Source: a virus
Taxonomy: Duplodnaviria; Heunggongvirae; Uroviricota; Caudoviricetes
IMG/VR virus record: IMGVR_UViG_2537562173_000012
DNA: 12,009 nucleotides
Direction: 5' to 3' (one strand)
How positions within the stretch are numbered: position 1 is the stretch's first letter; each line of letters starts with the position of its first letter. Shown here in pieces: positions 3,274 through 9,614 of this stretch. Below the pieces are notes generated by a model, which was given only the letters and a program-made list of their open reading frames with translations, was not told the origin of the DNA and made no database searches. The position numbers and the translations under genes were made by a program.

Positions 3274-3483
<210 letters not shown>

Positions 3484-3571: not shown

Positions 3572-4288
<717 letters not shown>

Positions 4289-4295
4289 CACGTAA

Positions 4296-4733
4296 ATGAT
4301 TAAAGAACGTATTTCTTATATCATTCCGATTGCGATGGATGAAGGCAACCCAGTAACTCCAGTTCTTATCTATGAAATGGATAAAGACTCCCATGAAGTG
4401 GATCTATCATTTGGCGCTTTTTTTATCGGCCTTAAGGCTACAAAAAAATATTCCATAGGCATTGAGGTTTTCAATGCTCAAGAAATACCGATACCAATTG
4501 ACACAAAACTGTACTCCAACCATAAGTTTTTTACGGTAGCAGAAGCCAACGATGGAGAAACCATCGTATCAACTTCTATGAGAATTAACTTCCCAAGGGT
4601 GAAAATTATCAAGCCTGGGATATTCGAAGTTAGAGCATCACTGGTTAATCCTGATAAAGGCGAAGTAATTGATGTAAAAAGTTCGTTTTTTGACGTGAAG
4701 ATAACAGGATCAGTTCGCGATGAGTTTAGATAA
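4296..4733 (+). CDS. Hypothetical protein, first gene of a cassette in the rexA/rexB position
   Basis: 145-aa ORF starting 8 nt after the cI stop on the same strand, with no obvious SD (possible coupling to cI). It does not resemble RexA, no catalytic motif was recognised, and the stretch looks more A+T-rich than its neighbours by eye. Confidence 0.6.
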   Translation: MIKERISYIIPIAMDEGNPVTPVLIYEMDKDSHEVDLSFGAFFIGLKATKKYSIGIEVFNAQEIPIPIDTKLYSNHKFFTVAEANDGETIVSTSMRINFPRVKIIKPGIFEVRASLVNPDKGEVIDVKSSFFDVKITGSVRDEFR

Positions 4734-4839
4734 CAAGGTTGCTCAGCTTCGTCCAAATCAAAACATATCTCGCCCAATTGGACACTATTCCACTGATGAT
4801 GCATACTCACGGCATGGTGGAGGAAACGGCGGAGGTAAC

Positions 4840-5091
4840 ATGCTTGAGGCTAGAGTTGCAAAGCTAGAGTCTGATGTTGAATACATCAAGCGCGATCTCG
4901 CTGAAGTAAAGTCAGATATAAAATCTGTAGATTCTCGTCTGTCAGGTATTGAGACAAGCATTAGCTCAGCAAAAATCACCATCAAGGCATCTGCGGTCGT
5001 TGTCAGTTTCGTGTTCGCATTTTGCGCCTACATTTTTGGAAGTTATGTTTCCAAAATCCTTGATGCCTTAAACGGACTCGTTCTTAAGTAA
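4840..5091 (+). CDS. Hypothetical small membrane protein (coiled-coil plus C-terminal TM helix), second gene of the cassette
   Basis: GGAGG SD at 4831-4835 before the ATG at 4840 gives an 83-aa product. The same frame is open from ATG 4720, giving the 123-aa form in the ORF track. Heptad-like LEARVAKLESDVEYIKRDLAEVKSDIKSV is followed by a hydrophobic stretch AVVVSFVFAFCAYIFGSYV. A terminator follows directly. Confidence 0.55.
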   Translation: MLEARVAKLESDVEYIKRDLAEVKSDIKSVDSRLSGIETSISSAKITIKASAVVVSFVFAFCAYIFGSYVSKILDALNGLVLK

Positions 5092-5098
5092 CACACAA

Positions 5099-5124
5099 CC
5101 CGGCCTCAGCGCCGGGTTTTCTTT
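5099..5124 (+). terminator. Intrinsic terminator ending the cI-cassette transcript
   Basis: CCCGGC (5099-5104) pairs with GCCGGG (5111-5116) around a 6-nt loop, followed by TTTTCTTT. Confidence 0.7.
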
Positions 5125-5281
5125 ACCTCACGATCCCCTTCACCCAATAACACATAACCAATTGTATTTATTTGAAAATTAATAGATACAACTCACTAAA
5201 CATCGCAATTCAGATCTCTCGATCACCTCCCAAGCCACACACCCCTGCAAAAAAATAAATCTATATAAAAAACATACAGAT

Positions 5282-5344
5282 AACCATCTGCGGTGATAAA
5301 TTATCTCTGGCGGTGTTGACATAAATACCACTGGCGGTGATACT
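5282..5344 (+). promoter_or_regulatory. OL3-OL2-OL1 operators and the PL promoter
   Basis: OL3 at 5282-5298, OL2 at 5302-5318 and OL1 at 5326-5342 match the lambda operator consensus. PL -35 TTGACA (5316-5321) and -10 GATACT (5339-5344) are 17 bp apart. Confidence 0.9.
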
Positions 5345-5412
5345 AAACACATCAGCAGGACGCACTACTCACCAGTGCGGTGAATATACAACGATTCAAG
5401 CAAGAATCTACG

Positions 5413-5427
5413 GCGCTGACAAAGCGC
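5413..5427 (+). promoter_or_regulatory. nutL boxB hairpin (GACAA loop, P22 type)
   Basis: GCGCT GACAA AGCGC is a perfect 5-bp stem with a 5-nt loop, about 70 nt downstream of PL. It matches the P22-type boxB I recall and differs from the lambda GAAGA/GAAAA loop. Confidence 0.6.
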
Positions 5428-5592
5428 AATAACCAAAGTGAACTTTGGGGTGTGGTGAAGGATTCATGGACGGGAATATGTCGCACGTAAAGCGGCGAGG
5501 CCTGCGGGACTATTGCCGAATTGAAGTAGGCCGAAACAGGTCGAAATGGGTCTCCCACCTACCACACCACCAAAGTTCATCAGGAGGTCTAT

Positions 5593-5976
5593 ATGACACG
5601 CAGAACTCAGTTCAAAGGCAATTCACGTTCTCGTCGTCGTGAGCGTTTAAAGGCAAAGGCATTAGCTAACGGCGTACTGGCCCGCGAAGAAGCAATAAGT
5701 TCAGAAGTATTACACCGCCCTACTCTAAGCAGAGCGCAGATTCAGGCTAAAGGTACTCACGAAACGCCTGAGCGCATAGAAGACGCTAAGCCAATTAAGT
5801 TCATAGCACAGGACGTGATCTGGCAACAGAAAGAATACAGACGCAATCTGGAGCGAGCGGCCATTGTGTACGCGAATGAGTTTGGACATAAGCAACCAGA
5901 AACTGGTGTATGTCTTCCAAACGTAGCCATTTACGCGGCAGGCTACCGGAAATCAAAACAACTGACGGCGAGGTAA
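5593..5976 (+). CDS. N: N-like transcription antitermination protein (P22 gp24-like arginine-rich motif)
   Basis: 127-aa ORF with AGGAGG SD 5 nt before the ATG. N-terminal arginine-rich motif NSRSRRRERLKAKALA. First gene downstream of PL and nutL. C-terminus VAIYAAGYRKSKQLTAR resembles what I recall of P22 N. Confidence 0.8.
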   Translation: MTRRTQFKGNSRSRRRERLKAKALANGVLAREEAISSEVLHRPTLSRAQIQAKGTHETPERIEDAKPIKFIAQDVIWQQKEYRRNLERAAIVYANEFGHKQPETGVCLPNVAIYAAGYRKSKQLTAR

Positions 5977-5978
5977 TT

Positions 5979-6371
5979 ATGGGTCAGGAAGAAAAATATG
6001 AGCTTAAAAAGCTCATTGGAGAAGACGCCATAGAAGAAATTGCAGCATTAACAACAGCTATAAAGAATATTAGGTATGCGCTAAATACGCTTATCTCCTC
6101 ATGCGACAAAAATAGCAGGGAATTTTTGATACTTGGCGCAGCTCTAGGAATAGTTGATGCGGCAACGCTTCACCTAATTACTCATGACGATATTCTTATT
6201 GAGCCGTATGAAACATTACTGCTTGTCAGGCAAAAAATGGCTGATGCCGCAGCAAATGGAGACCTTCAACTTTACATCGACTTAAGGAAAGTATTAAGGC
6301 GAATGGTCAGAACTGAAGGAGATATCCCCCTGAACGATGCTAAACAAGGCATACAAGCAAAGCTGGAATGA
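5979..6371 (+). CDS. Hypothetical protein (accessory gene downstream of N)
   Basis: 131-aa ORF from the ATG at 5979, 2 nt after the N stop, with a GAGGT SD. The ORF track shows an upstream TTG-initiated extension that I consider unlikely. Confidence 0.6.
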   Translation: MGQEEKYELKKLIGEDAIEEIAALTTAIKNIRYALNTLISSCDKNSREFLILGAALGIVDAATLHLITHDDILIEPYETLLLVRQKMADAAANGDLQLYIDLRKVLRRMVRTEGDIPLNDAKQGIQAKLE

Positions 6372-6430: not shown

Positions 6431-6592
6431 ATGATGAATAAGAAATACATTGTTGAAGTTATAGATCGAGAAACGAAAGAAGTAATTAAACATTTCGAAT
6501 TTGATAATTATAGAAAAGCTGACCGCGTCGAAGAAGGATTGTTGCGACAAAGTAATCTCGAAAAATTTTATGTTGTCATGCGATGCGAATAA
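6431..6592 (+). CDS. Hypothetical small protein
   Basis: 53-aa ORF (MMNKKYIVEVIDRETKEVIKHFEFDNYRKADRVEEGLLRQSNLEKFYVVMRCE) with a GGGGAAG SD. It is below the track's length cutoff. Confidence 0.45.
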   Translation: MMNKKYIVEVIDRETKEVIKHFEFDNYRKADRVEEGLLRQSNLEKFYVVMRCE

Positions 6593-6724
6593 GCGCCTAT
6601 AGCAGATTTACGAGTCTGCTATGTGAGCAATGTCGCTCGTAACTAAACAGGAGCCGACTTGTTCTGATTATTGGAAATCTTCTTTGCCCTCCAGTGTGAG
6701 GGCGATTTTTTTAACGGAGGAAAT

Positions 6725-7693
6725 ATGAGTGAAGTAACAGATTTAGTTGTTATTGAAAAAGCAAATGCAATGACTGTATTTCAGTCTGCCGACCAGATTG
6801 AAGAAATCCTTCAAAAGGTTGAACGTGAAGTTATGTCCTTTGTTCCTGATATCACAACGGCAAGGGGCAGAAAGGAGATCGCTTCTCTGGCGTATAAAGT
6901 TGCGCAGACGAAAACATATCTCGATGGTCTTGGCAAAGACCTTGTTGCTGAACTGAAGGAAATTCCAAAGCTAATTGATGCTAACCGCAAGACAGTGCGT
7001 GATCGCCTTGATGAGCTGAAAGCCAAGGCGCGCCAGCCTCTTACTGATTATGAGGAGGAGCAGGCACGGATTAAAGCCGAAGAAGAAGCTAAGGCAGCAG
7101 CCGAAGCTCTCGCAAAGCAAATTGAGTCTGACCATGAAATAGCGATTTTGATGGATCGCGAATTTGACCGCCAAAGAGAAGAGGCAAGACTCAAAGCGGA
7201 GCAGGAAAAGCGAGAGCATGAAGAACGCTTAAAAAGAGAAGCTGAAGAGAAAGCCAGAGCAGAAGCCGAAGCAAAGGCAAAAGCCGAAATTGAAGCAGCA
7301 GCAAGGCGAGAAGCAGAAGCTAAGGCCGCAGCGGAACGTGCAGAGCGTGAACGCATTGAAGCCGAGCAACGAGCACAGCGCGAAGCAAAAGAGGCAGCAG
7401 AACGAGCTGAAAGAGAAAAGCAGGCAGCAATTGAAGCAGAACGCCGAAAAGCACAGGAGGAGGCAGAACGAATCCGGCGCGAGGCTGAAGCAAAAGAGCA
7501 AGCCAGAATAGCAGAAGAAAAAAGAATCAAGGACGAAGAAGAGCGTAGAGCAAAGGATAAAGCTCACCGGAAAGAAGTAAATAACAAAATACTTGCTGAC
7601 CTTATCAAGGTTGGTGCATCAGAAGATGTTGCTAAAAATATCATAACAGCCATCGTAAAAGGCGAAGTATTCGCAACAAAAATAACCTACTAA
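6725..7693 (+). CDS. Hypothetical protein with a long E/K/A/R-rich coiled-coil central domain (TolA domain II-like composition)
   Basis: GGAGG SD 5 nt before the ATG at 6725; 322 aa. Residues about 110-290 are almost entirely Glu, Lys, Ala and Arg in EAEAKAKAE-type repeats, flanked by ordinary N- and C-terminal domains. Confidence 0.75.
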   Translation: MSEVTDLVVIEKANAMTVFQSADQIEEILQKVEREVMSFVPDITTARGRKEIASLAYKVAQTKTYLDGLGKDLVAELKEIPKLIDANRKTVRDRLDELKAKARQPLTDYEEEQARIKAEEEAKAAAEALAKQIESDHEIAILMDREFDRQREEARLKAEQEKREHEERLKREAEEKARAEAEAKAKAEIEAAARREAEAKAAAERAERERIEAEQRAQREAKEAAERAEREKQAAIEAERRKAQEEAERIRREAEAKEQARIAEEKRIKDEEERRAKDKAHRKEVNNKILADLIKVGASEDVAKNIITAIVKGEVFATKITY

Positions 7694-7717: not shown

Positions 7718-7849
7718 ATGATTTACGCAATCGCGGGAGGCGCTCGCATGGGTGCCTTCCAACTAAATGAATCTTTACTTGAACGAATCACCCGTAAATT
7801 ACGTGACGGATGGAAAAGAGTTGAGGTCTTATTATGCGCAATGAAATAG
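7718..7849 (+). CDS. cIII: CIII-like protein (FtsH inhibitor that stabilises CII)
   Basis: 43-aa ORF with an AAGGA SD. Its core ESLLERITRKLRDGWKR matches the conserved amphipathic helix of lambda CIII as I recall it. Confidence 0.7.
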   Translation: MIYAIAGGARMGAFQLNESLLERITRKLRDGWKRVEVLLCAMK

Positions 7850-7986
7850 CCATCAATCACCAGATGCTTCGTGCAGCGCAAAACAAAGCAGTAATAGCCA
7901 GATTTATTGGTGATTCAAAAATGTGGCTTGAAGCAAATAAAGCGATGAAATCAGCTATCAACCTTCCGTGGTATCGCAGGAAATGA
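7834..7986 (+). CDS. kil: Kil-like small protein (host cell-division inhibitor family)
   Basis: 50-aa ORF with a GAGG SD, overlapping the cIII 3' end by 16 nt, in the position of kil. It contains ARFIGDSKMWLEA, which resembles the lambda Kil motif I recall. The call is tentative. Confidence 0.5.
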   Translation: MRNEIAINHQMLRAAQNKAVIARFIGDSKMWLEANKAMKSAINLPWYRRK

Positions 7987-8242: not shown

Positions 8243-8848
8243 ATGAGCAAAGAATTTTACGCAAGACTGGCAGCTATTCAGGAGAATCTGAACGCGCCAA
8301 AGAATCAGTACAACTCATTCGGCAAATATAAATACAGAAGCTGCGAAGATATTCTTGAAGGCGTTAAGCCGTTACTGAATGGTCTGTTTTTATCAATCAG
8401 CGATGAAGTTGTGTTGATTGGTGATCGGTATTACGTGAAAGCCACGGCAACTATTACCGATGGTGAAAACAGTCATACGGCAACCGCTCTTGCACGAGAG
8501 GAAGAAAGCAAGAAAGGAATGGATTCTGCACAAGTTACGGGAGCTACAAGCTCTTATGCACGCAAGTATTGCCTCAATGGTTTGTTCGGCATTGATGATG
8601 CGAAAGATGCAGATACCGACGAGCATAAACATCAGCAGAACGCAGCAGCAAAGCAATCAAAACCATCACCTACACCTGAACAGGTTCTAAAAGCATTCAC
8701 TGACGCAGCATTGCAGAAAAACACCGTAGAAGAGCTTAAACAGGCGTTCGCCAAAGCGTGGAAGATGCTCGAAGGCACACCGGAGCAGCACAAAGCGCAG
8801 GACGTTTACAACATCAGACGAGACGAATTAGAAGGAGCGGCTGCTTAA
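8243..8848 (+). CDS. erf: Erf-family single-strand annealing recombinase (P22 Erf-like)
   Basis: 201-aa ORF. N-terminus [45 protein letters not shown] matches my recollection of P22 Erf. The TTG-initiated extension in the ORF track was rejected. Confidence 0.85.
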
Positions 8849-9297
8849 TGGCACATTCGATTACTGTAAGACTAAACAAGCCCGCAAGAGAGTTTCAGTA
8901 CGGGGAAAATATCGGATTCAACATCCGTGCTGGCGTTCAGTATTACGATCGCCAGACAAAAAAGAAAGAATGGACAAACTACAGCGCCGTTGTATTTGCC
9001 AAGCCGGGAGCGCAAGCGGATTACTATCGTAGCGTTCTGGTTGAAGGAGGCATTGTAGAAATTACCGGAGAAAACATCAGGGTTGATGTTTATCAGGGGC
9101 AAAATGGTCAATCAATCACTCTTGAATTACTGAAGCTGGCGCTGCGTGAAGAGCTGAAAGATGAGCTGGAAATCGTAATGCGCGTCTATTTTGAAAAGCC
9201 GCGTACCACGGTGGGCTGGAAAGGGCTGATTAACGATCCGCATATGGATAACAGCTTCCAGATCAACGACGGTCTGCGTATCGGAGGTGCTGGATAA
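8848..9297 (+). CDS. Putative OB-fold ssDNA-binding (SSB-like) protein
   Basis: 149-aa ORF coupled to erf (TAATG overlap) with a GAAGGAG SD. The pattern [33 protein letters not shown]...QGQNGQ resembles the SSB OB-fold signature. It lies directly after the recombinase. Confidence 0.5.
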
Positions 9298-9322
9298 ATT
9301 CAGAAAAAACTACGATCGAATA

Positions 9323-9520
9323 ATGTCTCTACCGCAGGAAACGAAAGAGGAAAAGGAATTTCGCCACTGTATATGGCTTGCAGAGAAAGAAGAACGCGAG
9401 CGAATTTACCAGACATCAATCCGACCATTCCGCAAAGCCACATATACCCACTTCCCTGAATATATCGACCCGCGCCTGCGTAATTACCGCTCACGCTATG
9501 GCGCTATCAGTAATGACTGA
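9323..9520 (+). CDS. Hypothetical small protein
   Basis: Frame open from GTG 9287 (the track's start), but the SD there abuts the start codon. The first ATG is at 9323 and has no clear SD. Weak initiation signals either way. Confidence 0.35.
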   Translation: MSLPQETKEEKEFRHCIWLAEKEERERIYQTSIRPFRKATYTHFPEYIDPRLRNYRSRYGAISND

Positions 9521-9614
9521 GGAATTTACCATGAGAGGACTTGCTTAAGAGAAAGAGTTTCGGTTCTGTTAATGACAACAAATATCTGAATGCGATGTGG
9601 CGGAGTGGGAAGAA

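What the first reader, a model, noticed from the sequence alone, without database searches (positions are those of the whole stretch)
6725..7693. Large E/K/A/R-rich coiled-coil protein between N and cIII, with DNA-level repeat degeneracy
About 180 residues are almost pure EAKA/ERAE repeats, and the nucleotide sequence is so repetitive that several long spurious ORFs open on other frames (7048-7530, 7229-7567, 6971-7219 minus; 7290-7511 plus). The gene sits in the PL-operon accessory slot where lambda carries ral, sieB and ea10. The composition recalls TolA domain II, so an envelope-targeting or exclusion role is conceivable but unproven. The distinct N-terminal (about 110 aa) and C-terminal (about 40 aa) domains argue that it is a real protein.
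Basis: partly seen in the sequence, partly recalled or inferred. Interest (0 to 1): 0.5.

Follow-up and report, generated by a model that had tools for sequence, protein, structure and literature searches.

The report
Rod-like helper of phage recombination genes
This is a real, common phage gene, often mislabelled "TolA", that encodes two small conserved end domains joined by a long charged helix, and its gene neighbours and one published relative tie it to phage DNA recombination rather than to the cell envelope.

Summary
Window 6725-7693 (+) is a 322-aa gene lying between N and cIII. It has a conserved N-terminal domain, about 180 residues that are 78% E/A/R/K, and a conserved C-terminal domain of about 44 aa.

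The "DNA repetitiveness" is not a repeat array. The stretch has only 8.7% T, so stop codons are scarce and false ORFs open in the other frames.

The TolA/envelope reading is not supported. The TolA model scores 9 bits against a cut-off of 59, and there is no membrane anchor.

The gene is Sf6 gene 33 / D3 orf53 (PHROG 1376), a very large family absent from Pfam and from solved structures.

In 14 of 15 phage lineages checked it lies next to or near a strand-annealing recombinase, whichever type that is: Erf, RecT/Beta, Rad52-like or Sak4.

The central stretch looks like an ER/K single alpha-helix rather than a heptad coiled coil.

A 2025 preprint shows that D3 orf53 alone makes phage and plasmid DNA sensitive to Gabija, as Mu Gam and Exo-Erf do.

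Best reading, at moderate confidence: a non-essential accessory of the recombination module that acts on linear phage DNA ends or limits RecBCD access to them. It is ordinary as a gene but useful as a lead.

The parts
6684..6712 (+). Intrinsic terminator directly upstream of the gene: an 8-pair GC-rich hairpin followed by a T7 run, the tL2-type terminator. The gene is therefore reached from PL only by N-antiterminated transcription.
   Evidence: Terminator scan. The homologous position in Sf6 is annotated 'tL2A' and overlaps the mosaic boundary sequence bsq4.
6716..6720 (+). Shine-Dalgarno GGAGG, 4 nt before the ATG at 6725.
   Evidence: Read directly from the sequence.
6725..7693 (+). Complete gene, 322 aa plus stop. 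It is the orthologue of Sf6 gene 33 and the mEp043 'TolA', and a homologue of Pseudomonas phage D3 orf53; PHROG 1376.
   Evidence: Synonymous and non-synonymous counts favour frame 1.
6725..7054 (+). Conserved N-terminal domain, aa 1-110. Consensus: ...FVPDxSTAKGRKEIASxAxKVAxSKTYLDGxGKxLVAxxKExPKxIDAxRKxxRDxLDxLKxEVRxPLTxWE. The sub-stretch aa 40-110 is basic (pI 9.3).
   Evidence: phmmer with aa 1-113 finds 4850 cluster representatives at E<=1e-3. Invariant columns are; pI is.
7055..7165 (+). Short-form connector, aa 111-147, carrying the conserved DHEIAILMDREFDR motif. About a third of family members have here an extra sub-domain of about 55-70 aa with an invariant Trp (the 'long form', as in D3 orf53).
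   Evidence: Alignments A2 and A4 and the long/short sorting.
7166..7558 (+). ER/K-rich uninterrupted helix, aa 148-278, probably a single alpha-helix spacer. On the DNA this is the T-poor, purine-rich stretch that produces the false ORFs.
   Evidence: AlphaFold2 helix. Opposite-charge pairs at i,i+4 number 52, against 23.9 +/- 3.7 in shuffles (z=7.5), and hydrophobic residues show no 3.5-residue periodicity. The property holds family-wide.
7559..7690 (+). Conserved C-terminal domain, aa 279-322. Consensus: DxxHRxxINxxAxxxLxxxGxxxxxAKxxVxAIAxGxIxxVxIxY at the very C-terminus. Basic (aa 276-322, pI 9.5).
7048..7567 (-). Antisense false ORFs (7048-7530 and 7229-7567; also 6971-7219 on the minus strand and 7290-7511 on the plus strand). 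These are by-products of T depletion, not genes.
   Evidence: Substitutions read in the two alternative plus-strand frames (frames 2 and 3) are almost all non-synonymous; antisense frames were not tested in this way.
7718..7986 (+). cIII (7718-7849) and kil (7834-7986), which separate the gene from the recombination module in lambdoid phages.
   Evidence: Pfam PF02061 and PF06301.
8243..8848 (+). Erf-family strand-annealing protein, the recombinase of this phage's Rec module and the conserved companion of the gene family.
   Evidence: Pfam PF04404, E=2e-44; ORF.
9287..9520 (+). Abc2-type anti-RecBCD protein. It matches only profile positions 23-97 of 97, so it is N-terminally truncated here.
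   Evidence: Pfam PF11043 Anti-RecBCD_p2, E=8e-45. PGAP names it 'phage anti-RecBCD protein' in near-identical prophages.

Best explanation
The gene encodes a cytoplasmic, non-enzymatic, rod-shaped accessory protein of the phage homologous-recombination module.

Shown:
- It is a delayed-early PL-operon gene placed behind a tL2-type terminator.
- The protein has two small conserved basic domains (N-terminal about 110 aa, C-terminal about 44 aa) joined by an uninterrupted ER/K-type helix of about 130-180 residues. That is about 20-28 nm if extended.
- The family travels with strand-annealing recombinases of every type.
- The D3 family member is dispensable, and on its own it makes injected linear DNA a target of Gabija, as Mu Gam and Exo-Erf do.

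Inferred:
- The protein acts on linear phage DNA. It binds, caps or bridges DNA ends or recombination intermediates through its terminal domains, with the rigid helix as a spacer.
- In doing so it keeps RecBCD from loading locally and hands the ends to the phage's own annealing and exonuclease machinery for circularisation and recombination-dependent replication.
- Because it pairs with unrelated recombinases (Rad52-fold and RecA-fold), it probably recognises DNA or a host factor rather than the recombinase itself.
For: Synteny across phage lineages, gene shown in brackets:
- D3: [orf53]-Erf-YqaJ exonuclease, 9 nt apart.
- Enterobacter/E. coli prophage: [gene]-GamL-RecT-?-YqaJ.
- Azotobacter prophage: [gene]-48 aa-AAA_24 (weak hit).
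- Iodobacter phiPLPE: RecE-Bet-[gene]-RdgC.
- Vibrio BT-1011: recombinase-SSB-[gene].
- Serratia Eta: [gene]-x-ExoVIII-x-Bet.
- Acinetobacter TCUAN1: [gene]-Bet.
- Edwardsiella GF-2, lambdoid order: [gene]-cIII-three small ORFs-putative recombination protein.
- Lbo-JY16: [gene]-ERF-YqaJ.
- Klebsiella RCIP0098: [gene]-2 small ORFs-ERF.
- Vibrio H188: Sak4-x-[gene]-ExoVIII-Cas4.
- Vibrio D173: Erf-[gene].
- phiPSA1: [gene]-Sak4-type AAA_24.
- Of the 75 near-identical lambdoid loci (out of 80 fetched) in which the gene was located, 72 have a downstream recombinase: Erf 35, Rad52/22 29, RecT 4, Sak4 4.

Experiment on a homologue (51% identity over the N-domain, E=3e-37), from PMC12407980:
- It cross-complements a JBD30 Mu-Gam escape mutant.
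- It lowers transduction of plasmids that carry it by 1-2 logs in Gabija cells.
- Engineered D3 delta-orf51-53 phages were propagated and yielded escape mutants, and escape phages with larger deletions removing orf53 grow normally.

Parallel in Firmicutes phages: the slot upstream of erf-ssb or sak4 is filled by Mu Gam-like, DUF1351, DUF2483 or Gp157 genes, 'implying analogous function' (PMC8093625).

Protein features:
- All-helical models.
- SAH signature, z=7.5, conserved in 86% of 109 homologues, with spacer length varying from 103 to 257 aa.
- Both terminal conserved blocks are basic, pI 9.3 and 9.5.
- No transmembrane segment.
Against: - The whole protein is acidic (pI 5.5).
- It co-occurs with dedicated anti-RecBCD proteins: Abc2 in this window and in Sf6, GamL in the Enterobacter prophage. 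If its job is RecBCD exclusion, it would be redundant there.
- The Gabija result is a preprint on a long-form homologue in Pseudomonas. It gives no biochemistry for gp53, and its authors do not count gp53 among the known end-binders.
- The most thorough survey of lambdoid Rec modules does not list this gene as a Rec gene (PMC12315714).
- In lambdoid phages it is separated from the recombinase by cIII and kil.
- One lineage (Vibrio 1.209.O) shows no recognisable recombinase nearby.
- The two AlphaFold2 runs disagree on whether the helix is extended or folded back as a hairpin, and pTM is only 0.25-0.36.
Confidence: 0.4

Rival explanations
1. Recombination mediator or scaffold. The protein does not touch DNA ends. 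It bridges protein partners in the recombination or replication machinery, for example host or phage SSB, the exonuclease or the replisome, and uses the rigid helix as a spacer.
For: The synteny is the same as for the best explanation. The protein is acidic overall and has no DNA-binding fold. P22 Arf and Abc1 are precedents for small Rec-module helpers of unknown mechanism (PMC12315714).
Against: It pairs with four unrelated recombinase types, and with or without a phage SSB or exonuclease. A specific phage protein partner is therefore unlikely. In D3, orf53 acts alone in trans on heterologous phage JBD30 and on plasmids.
Confidence: 0.2
2. Direct, global inhibitor of a host nuclease (RecBCD or another such as SbcCD), working like lambda Gam, P22 Abc2 or T7 gp5.9 by binding the enzyme rather than the DNA.
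For: Loss of RecBCD is enough to sensitise DNA to Gabija, and orf53 licenses Gabija. A long charged helix could occupy a DNA channel, as lambda Gam's helix does (own knowledge).
Against: It co-occurs with Abc2 or GamL, whereas lambdoid Rec modules almost never duplicate a function. In the preprint, GabijaHi is lethal without RecB and orf66 expression is toxic with Gabija, but no such toxicity is reported for orf53; this is an argument from silence. The central helix is nearly charge-balanced (net -6 over 180 aa), unlike DNA mimics. There are no hits to the Gam or Abc2 models.
Confidence: 0.12
3. An accessory host-takeover or anti-defence protein unrelated to recombination, whose position beside recombinases only reflects the layout of early operons.
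For: In lambdoid phages the N-to-cIII interval is a hot spot for accessory genes such as ral, sieB and ea10 (own knowledge; the ral homologue in Sf6 is seen). The gene is dispensable in D3.
Against: Adjacency to the recombinase persists in non-lambdoid Vibrio, Acinetobacter, Iodobacter, Pseudomonas and Serratia phages with different operon layouts, and on either side of the recombinase. There is no hit in PADLOC beyond noise: LmuB, E=0.033, 10 bits.
Confidence: 0.15
4. One reading: a TolA-like protein that acts on the cell envelope, either interfering with Tol-dependent uptake or cell division, or excluding other phages.
For: The composition of the central region resembles TolA domain II, and many database records are named 'TolA' or 'cell envelope biogenesis protein'.
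Against: The TolA HMM scores 9 bits against a cut-off of 59.45. There is no N-terminal anchor or signal sequence and no TolA domain III. Synteny and the D3 phenotype point to DNA. The 'TolA' names are low-complexity artefacts.
Confidence: 0.03

Closest known systems
Pseudomonas phage D3 orf53 (gp53) / Shigella phage Sf6 gene 33 family (PHROG 1376)
   Same: The domain plan is the same: a conserved N-domain, an ER/K helix, and a C-terminal ...I.Y domain. The window gene is about 98% identical to Sf6 gene 33 at the DNA level. It is 51% identical to D3 orf53 over the N-domain. The PHROG 1376 match is E=1e-109 over the full length.
   Different: D3 orf53 is the 'long form', with an extra Trp-containing sub-domain after the N-domain, and it lies immediately next to erf. 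The window gene is the 'short form' and is separated from erf by cIII, kil and a small ORF.
Mu Gam / Ku-type DNA-end-binding proteins (PF07352)
   Same: Both sit in a slot beside strand-annealing recombinases (PMC8093625). Both give the same phenotype: each alone licenses Gabija, and each cross-complements the other's escape mutants (PMC12407980).
   Different: There is no sequence match. The predicted structure is all-helical with no Ku beta-barrel. DNA-end binding has not been shown for this family.
DUF1351 (PF07083), Sipho_Gp157 (PF05565) and DUF2483 of Firmicutes phages
   Same: These are helical proteins of unknown function of about 170-310 aa, encoded directly upstream of erf, recT or sak4 (phi9805 DUF1351-Sak4-SSB). 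One UniRef cluster of this family is even named 'DUF1351 domain-containing'.
   Different: No detectable homology. The Pfam DUF1351 model gives one E=2 hit among 120 members scanned. hhalign probability is 0.2-0.3%, although the DUF1351 profile I could build was shallow. Gp157 coexists with this gene in 4 lambdoid loci, so the two are not simple substitutes.
TolA domain II
   Same: A long Ala/Glu/Lys/Arg-rich uninterrupted helix that plausibly serves as a rigid spacer. This is the source of the 'TolA' annotations.
   Different: There is no membrane anchor and no TolA C-terminal domain, the HMM score is far below cut-off, and the protein sits in a cytoplasmic, DNA-related context.
ER/K single alpha-helix (SAH) domains, e.g. 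myosin VI/X and caldesmon (own knowledge)
   Same: High E/K/R content, strong enrichment of i,i+4 opposite-charge pairs (z=7.5), no heptad hydrophobic seam, and almost no Pro or Gly.
   Different: It is richer in Ala than classic SAHs. Behaviour as a monomeric stable helix is untested. The MSA-based AlphaFold2 model folds it into a hairpin with a low-confidence apex.

Membership tests
TolA (NCBIfam TIGR02794 tolA_full) | Score at or above the curated cut-off of the full-length TolA model | tested here: not met
   9.0 bits, E=0.73, against a cut-off of 59.45.
TolA (NCBIfam TIGR02794 tolA_full) | N-terminal inner-membrane anchor helix | tested here: not met
   The maximum 19-residue Kyte-Doolittle mean is 1.03, at residue 293. 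The N-terminus is polar.
TolA (NCBIfam TIGR02794 tolA_full) | C-terminal TolA domain III | tested here: not met
   No Pfam hit for the protein or for 111 homologues. The C-terminal 44 aa form a different, family-specific motif.
Gene 33 / D3 gp53 family (PHROG 1376) | Full-length match to the family profile | tested here: met
   phrog_1376, E=1e-109, residues 1-322.
Gene 33 / D3 gp53 family (PHROG 1376) | Family-invariant N-domain residues and the C-terminal HRxxIN...I.Y motif | tested here: met
   R49, K63, G70, R88, P105, E110, H281 and Y322 are all present.
Gene 33 / D3 gp53 family (PHROG 1376) | Licenses Gabija targeting when expressed alone (the D3 gp53 phenotype) | not testable with these tools
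   Shown only for D3 orf53 (PMC12407980).
DUF1351 (PF07083) | Match to the Pfam model at or above the gathering score | tested here: not met
   No hit for the window protein at E<=1. Among 120 relatives scanned there is one hit, at E=2 and 8.5 bits against a cut-off of 27.8.
DUF1351 (PF07083) | Profile-profile similarity to bona fide DUF1351 proteins | tested here: inconclusive
   hhalign probability is 0.2-0.3%. However, the DUF1351 profile had only 5 sequences (Neff 1.9), because the homologue search returned few relatives.
DUF1351 (PF07083) | Gene placed directly beside a phage SSAP gene | tested here: met
   for this family; for DUF1351.
Mu Gam / Ku (PF07352) | Sequence match and a Ku-like beta-barrel core | tested here: not met
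Lambda Gam / P22 Abc2 anti-RecBCD proteins | Sequence match to PF06064, PF28165 or PF11043 | tested here: not met
   No hit. Separate GamL or Abc2 genes coexist with it.
ER/K single alpha-helix (SAH) domain | Enrichment of i,i+4 oppositely charged pairs with no heptad hydrophobic seam | tested here: met
   52 pairs against 23.9 +/- 3.7 in shuffles, with no enrichment at other spacings. Hydrophobic periodicity power at 3.5 residues is 0.27. Among 109 homologues the median z is 4.5, and 86% exceed 3.
ER/K single alpha-helix (SAH) domain | Monomeric, stable, extended helix in solution | not testable with these tools
   AlphaFold2 gives one 188-residue helix without an alignment. With an alignment it gives a hairpin whose apex has pLDDT 45-53.

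The most novel reading that the evidence does not exclude
The gene 33/gp53 family is a new, very widespread class of phage DNA-end factors, functionally parallel to Mu Gam/Ku but built differently. Two small basic domains are held about 20-28 nm apart, or folded together, by an ER/K single alpha-helix. The protein caps or bridges the ends of injected linear genomes, excludes RecBCD locally and promotes circularisation. This in turn is what Gabija-type defences read as 'non-self'.
Probability: 0.3. Interest if true: 0.65.

Novelty: new member of a known kind. Interest (0 to 1): 0.4.

Why it matters
- Annotation. Roughly one in ten complete E. coli genomes carries this gene (530 of 5426). The family has thousands of sequence clusters, yet it has no Pfam family and no solved structure, and it is routinely mislabelled TolA. 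Correcting that label removes a false 'envelope' lead from many phage and prophage annotations.
- Biology. The constant companionship with every kind of strand-annealing recombinase, together with the D3 result, nominates the family as an unrecognised part of phage recombination modules. It also nominates it as one determinant of sensitivity to Gabija. Both ideas can be tested directly in easy E. coli phages such as Sf6, mEp043 and the P22-like phages.
- Recombineering. If the protein improves survival of DNA ends, it could be a useful additive to recombineering systems.

Tried and rejected
- TolA homology: rejected.
- Defence-system models (PADLOC): only noise.
- True tandem-repeat origin of the central region: rejected.
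- Pfam scans of the protein, of 111 homologues and of 8 further relatives at E<=10: nothing meaningful.
- PDB sequence-profile search: only low-complexity helical hits, E>=0.0075.
- Foldseek against PDB: nothing below E=2.6.
- Foldseek against BFVD: only unnamed family members.
- AFDB50 fold library: unavailable.
- Homology to DUF1351: three hhalign runs, including one with the long-form subfamily, gave only a 14-19 residue non-significant segment. In two of the three runs that segment fell on the conserved H-x-K-x-[IV]-N of both families. The DUF1351 homologue search was too shallow to build a good profile.
- Viral-contig scan: returned only near-identical lambdoid copies. Diverse contexts were therefore taken one by one from the phage collection.
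- Canonical heptad coiled coil: rejected for lack of a hydrophobic seam.
- Literature: no paper in the library names Sf6 gene 33 or the 'TolA-like' phage protein functionally. The 2025 lambdoid Rec-module survey does not list it.
Full report
**Where the window comes from.** The window is the immunity and early-left region of a lambdoid phage or prophage, read so that the PL operon runs on the + strand.
- cro is at 3274-3474 (-) and cI at 3575-4288 (+).
- N is at 5593-5976 (PF25694), cIII at 7718-7849 (PF02061) and kil at 7834-7986 (PF06301).
- An Erf recombinase is at 8243-8848 (PF04404).
- An N-terminally truncated Abc2-type anti-RecBCD gene is at 9287-9520 (PF11043).

The finding is the gene at 6725-7693.

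**Check of the observation.**
- The ORF finder starts the frame at TTG 6671. The biological start is ATG 6725, four bases after GGAGG (6716-6720). This lies immediately downstream of a GC-rich hairpin with a T7 run (6684-6712). Sf6 annotates the homologous hairpin as terminator tL2A, at a mosaic boundary.
- The product is 322 aa. Residues 111-290 are 78% E/A/R/K.
- Their cause is not DNA repetition.
  - Tandem Repeats Finder reports only a 63%-matching 6-nt period and a 15-nt unit repeated twice.
  - Dispersed repeats are 60-74% identical.
  - All 80 near-identical copies fetched from IMG/VR aligned to the 969-nt reference without gaps. One of them, L083, matched one base shorter. This is the opposite of what a slippage-prone array would show.
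- The cause is composition. The central 540 nt have 8.7% T and 72% purine because the codons are GAR, GCN, AAR and CGN/AGR. Every stop codon on either strand needs a T in the sense strand. Two antisense frames therefore have one stop each, against 7-10 expected per 180 codons.
- Frame 1 is the coding frame. Across 74 alleles there are 892 synonymous and 277 non-synonymous differences in frame 1, against 61/1113 and 181/996 in the other two frames. These are counts over alleles, not independent events.

**What the gene is.**
- It is 98-100% identical to genes in many E. coli and Shigella lambdoid phages. Examples are mEp043, mEp234, mEp213, HK544, CUS-3 and IME10, and it is Sf6 'gene 33', which is annotated 'similar to phage D3 orf53'.
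- It is present in 530 of 5426 complete E. coli genomes, where PGAP calls it 'hypothetical protein'.
- Other pipelines call it 'TolA', 'cell envelope biogenesis protein', 'colicin import membrane protein', 'fibrinogen binding protein' or 'tail-fiber protein'. All of these are low-complexity artefacts.
- The curated TolA model gives 9 bits against a cut-off of 59.45.
- Pfam has no family for it or for 111 homologues. PADLOC gives only noise. PHROGs places it in phrog_1376, of unknown function.

**Size and architecture of the family.**
- phmmer with the N-domain alone against 1.84 billion cluster representatives gives 4850 hits at E<=1e-3 and 3247 at E<=1e-10.
- Typical length is 290-360 aa.
- tblastn finds it in 190 sequenced phages of Pseudomonas, Vibrio, Escherichia, Klebsiella, Erwinia, Yersinia, Acinetobacter and others.
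- All full-length members share three parts.
  - An N-domain with a striking conserved block: ...PDxSTAKGRKEIASxAxKVAxSKTYLDGxGKxLVAxxKExPKxIDAxRKxxRDxLDxLKxEVRxPLTxWE. Invariant residues are R49, K63, G70, R88, P105 and E110.
  - A low-complexity helix of variable length.
  - A C-terminal domain of about 44 aa: DxxHRxxIN...AKxxVxAIAxGxIxxVxIxY, ending the protein.
- About a third of members, including D3 orf53, carry an extra 55-70 aa sub-domain with an invariant Trp after the N-domain. The window protein is the short form, with a DHEIAILMDREFDR motif in that place.

**Structure.**
- AlphaFold2 without an alignment predicts one uninterrupted helix from 108 to 295 (pLDDT 77.6, pTM 0.25).
- With the 112-sequence alignment it predicts helices 46-187 and 196-295 folded back as a hairpin. 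Mean pLDDT is 87, but the apex is at 45-53 and pTM is only 0.36.
- The global topology is therefore unsettled.
- Sequence statistics favour an ER/K single alpha-helix over a heptad coiled coil.
  - In residues 150-280 there are 52 oppositely charged i,i+4 pairs, against 23.9 +/- 3.7 in shuffles (z=7.5). There is no enrichment at other spacings, and there is depletion at i+8.
  - Hydrophobic residues, even counting Ala, show no 3.5-residue periodicity.
- The same signature holds across the family. Median z is 4.5, and 86% of 109 homologues exceed 3. Median E/K/R/A/Q/D content is 75%, Pro plus Gly is about 1%, and spacer length ranges from 103 to 257 aa.
- An extended helix of 130-188 residues would span about 20-28 nm.
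- The two conserved terminal blocks are basic (pI 9.3 for aa 40-110; 9.5 for aa 276-322), while the whole protein is acidic (pI 5.5). There is no transmembrane segment.
- No solved or viral predicted structure resembles the model beyond generic helices.

**Genomic context, the main new evidence.** In phages that are not lambdoid and not related to each other, the gene lies beside the recombination genes.

| Phage or prophage | Gene order (family gene in brackets) |
|---|---|
| Pseudomonas D3 | [gene]-Erf-YqaJ exonuclease |
| Enterobacter/E. coli prophage | [gene]-GamL-RecT-?-YqaJ |
| Azotobacter prophage | [gene]-48 aa-AAA_24 (weak hit) |
| Iodobacter phiPLPE | RecE-Bet-[gene]-RdgC |
| Vibrio BT-1011 | recombinase-SSB-[gene] |
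| Serratia Eta | [gene]-x-ExoVIII-x-Bet |
| Acinetobacter TCUAN1 | [gene]-Bet |
| Lbo-JY16 | [gene]-ERF-YqaJ |
| Klebsiella RCIP0098 | [gene]-two small ORFs-ERF |
| Vibrio H188 | Sak4-x-[gene]-ExoVIII-Cas4 nuclease |
| Vibrio D173 | Erf-[gene] |
| Pseudomonas phiPSA1 | [gene]-Sak4-type AAA_24 |

- Edwardsiella GF-2 has the lambdoid arrangement.
- Only Vibrio phage 1.209.O shows no recognisable recombinase nearby.
- Among the 80 near-identical lambdoid loci fetched, the gene was located in 75. In 72 of those, a recombinase lies downstream. It is Erf in 35, Rad52/22-type in 29, RecT in 4 (together with a Sipho_Gp157 gene) and Sak4 in 4.
- The family thus accompanies every class of phage strand-annealing protein, Rad52-fold and RecA-fold alike. 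This argues that it works on DNA or on a host factor rather than on a particular recombinase.
- The same slot in Firmicutes phages is occupied by Mu Gam-like, DUF1351, DUF2483 or Gp157 genes, which Steczkiewicz and colleagues took to 'imply their analogous function' (PMC8093625). Oenococcus phage phi9805 is an example, with DUF1351-Sak4-SSB.
- I could not show homology to DUF1351. Pfam gives one E=2 hit in 120 proteins, and hhalign probability is 0.2-0.3%. The DUF1351 profile I could build was shallow, so I record that test as inconclusive rather than negative.

**Experimental evidence on a family member.** The source is a 2025 preprint from the Bondy-Denomy and Smith laboratories (PMC12407980).
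- Phage D3 escapes the Gabija defence only by deleting a block that includes orf51-orf53 and orf66.
- Exo-Erf (orf51-52), orf53 and orf66 are three redundant 'licensing factors'.
- orf53 alone, in trans, restores Gabija targeting. It cross-complements a JBD30 escape mutant whose lesions include Mu Gam. It also lowers transduction of a plasmid carrying it by 1-2 logs in Gabija cells.
- The authors' model is that proteins which keep RecBCD off linear DNA ends make that DNA a Gabija substrate. Examples are Mu Gam by capping and Exo-Erf by resection. Loss of RecB has the same effect.
- They give no biochemistry for gp53.
- D3 orf53 is a true homologue of the window protein: 51% identity over the N-domain, E=3e-37, with the shared C-terminal motif.
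- Engineered D3 delta-orf51-53 phages were propagated and yielded escape mutants, and escape phages with larger deletions that remove orf53 grow normally, so the gene is dispensable in the laboratory.

**Best explanation and its limits.** Taken together, the gene most likely encodes a cytoplasmic, non-enzymatic accessory of the recombination module. It would act on linear phage DNA by capping or bridging ends or recombination intermediates through its two small basic domains, with the ER/K helix as a rigid spacer. In doing so it would limit RecBCD access locally.

What is shown:
- the operon position,
- the architecture,
- the synteny,
- the D3 phenotype.

What is inferred:
- DNA binding,
- end specificity,
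- the role of the spacer.

Points against:
- No DNA-binding fold is recognised.
- The protein is acidic overall.
- It coexists with Abc2 (this window, Sf6) or GamL, so pure RecBCD exclusion would be redundant.
- The most detailed survey of lambdoid Rec modules does not count it as a Rec gene (PMC12315714).

I put this explanation at 0.4. The rivals are:

| Rival | Confidence |
|---|---|
| Protein-bridging mediator or scaffold | 0.2 |
| Accessory role unrelated to recombination | 0.15 |
| Direct nuclease inhibitor | 0.12 |
| TolA-like envelope role | 0.03 |

**Novelty and verdict.**
- The gene itself is long known and ordinary, being Sf6 gene 33 and D3 orf53, and it is very common.
- What this analysis adds:
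  - the T-depletion explanation for the false ORFs;
  - the SAH-type nature of the central helix;
  - the family-wide three-part architecture, with long and short forms;
  - the consistent association with all classes of phage recombinases, linked to a fresh experimental phenotype.
- The result is a sound, testable lead about an unannotated but very widespread family, not a surprise in kind. Interest is 0.4.

Noticed in passing
window 9135-9281 (+), inside ORF 8758-9297: A 147-bp stretch is 100% identical to an internal piece of the E. coli chromosomal gene aroG (DAHP synthase) and sits in the phage early-left region. It replaces the C-terminal part of the SSB-like gene downstream of erf and is read in frame (...ITLELL|[50 protein letters not shown]...). 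Related prophages lack it: they cover window 8700-9600 in two pieces at 84%.
   Followed up: partly
window 9287-9520 (+): The Abc2-type anti-RecBCD gene matches only positions 23-97 of the 97-position Pfam model. The same event that brought in the aroG fragment seems to have removed its N-terminus. This phage's SSB-like and anti-RecBCD genes may both be defective, while erf and the gene under study are intact.
   Followed up: partly
window 4296-4733 and 4720-5091 (+), just downstream of cI: Two overlapping ORFs of 145 and 123 aa occupy the slot where lambda has rexA and rexB. Neither has a significant Pfam match. The second gives only a sub-threshold XhlA-like hit and ends in a hydrophobic stretch. 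They may be a prophage-expressed exclusion or abortive-infection pair.
   Followed up: no
window 5910-6371 and 6431-6592 (+): Two ORFs of 153 and 53 aa between N and the tL2-type terminator have no Pfam match. They differ from the ral-region genes of Sf6 in the same interval, which shows the mosaic nature of this slot.
   Followed up: no
lambdoid loci L005-L084 (e.g. L057 6514-7029; L043 5884-6798): In four loci the gene coexists with a RecT gene followed by a Sipho_Gp157 gene (PF05565, E=4e-38). Gp157, another 'recombinase-neighbour' protein of unknown function, is therefore not a simple substitute for it.
   Followed up: partly
database relatives of window 6725-7693 (P0001-P0058; phages CUS-3 and Louie): Many database entries for this gene are 'partial' or split into two hypothetical proteins at the low-complexity region. 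PHROGs accordingly has separate families for the N-terminal 115 aa (phrog_17211) and for residues 111-322 (phrog_21365). The likely causes are assembly breaks or frameshifts, not real domain shuffling. One 111-aa E. coli protein (P0018) combines the N-domain with a PF11043 (Abc2) match, which suggests a deletion fusion.
   Followed up: no
L085 (Azotobacter chroococcum CP066310) 5001-6068; UniRef name of P0204: UniRef names one cluster of this family 'DUF1351 domain-containing protein', although the current Pfam DUF1351 model does not reach it. In two of three profile comparisons, both families also align weakly at a conserved H-x-K-x-[IV]-N just before the C-terminal domain. This hints at a very remote relationship that better profiles could test.
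   Followed up: partly
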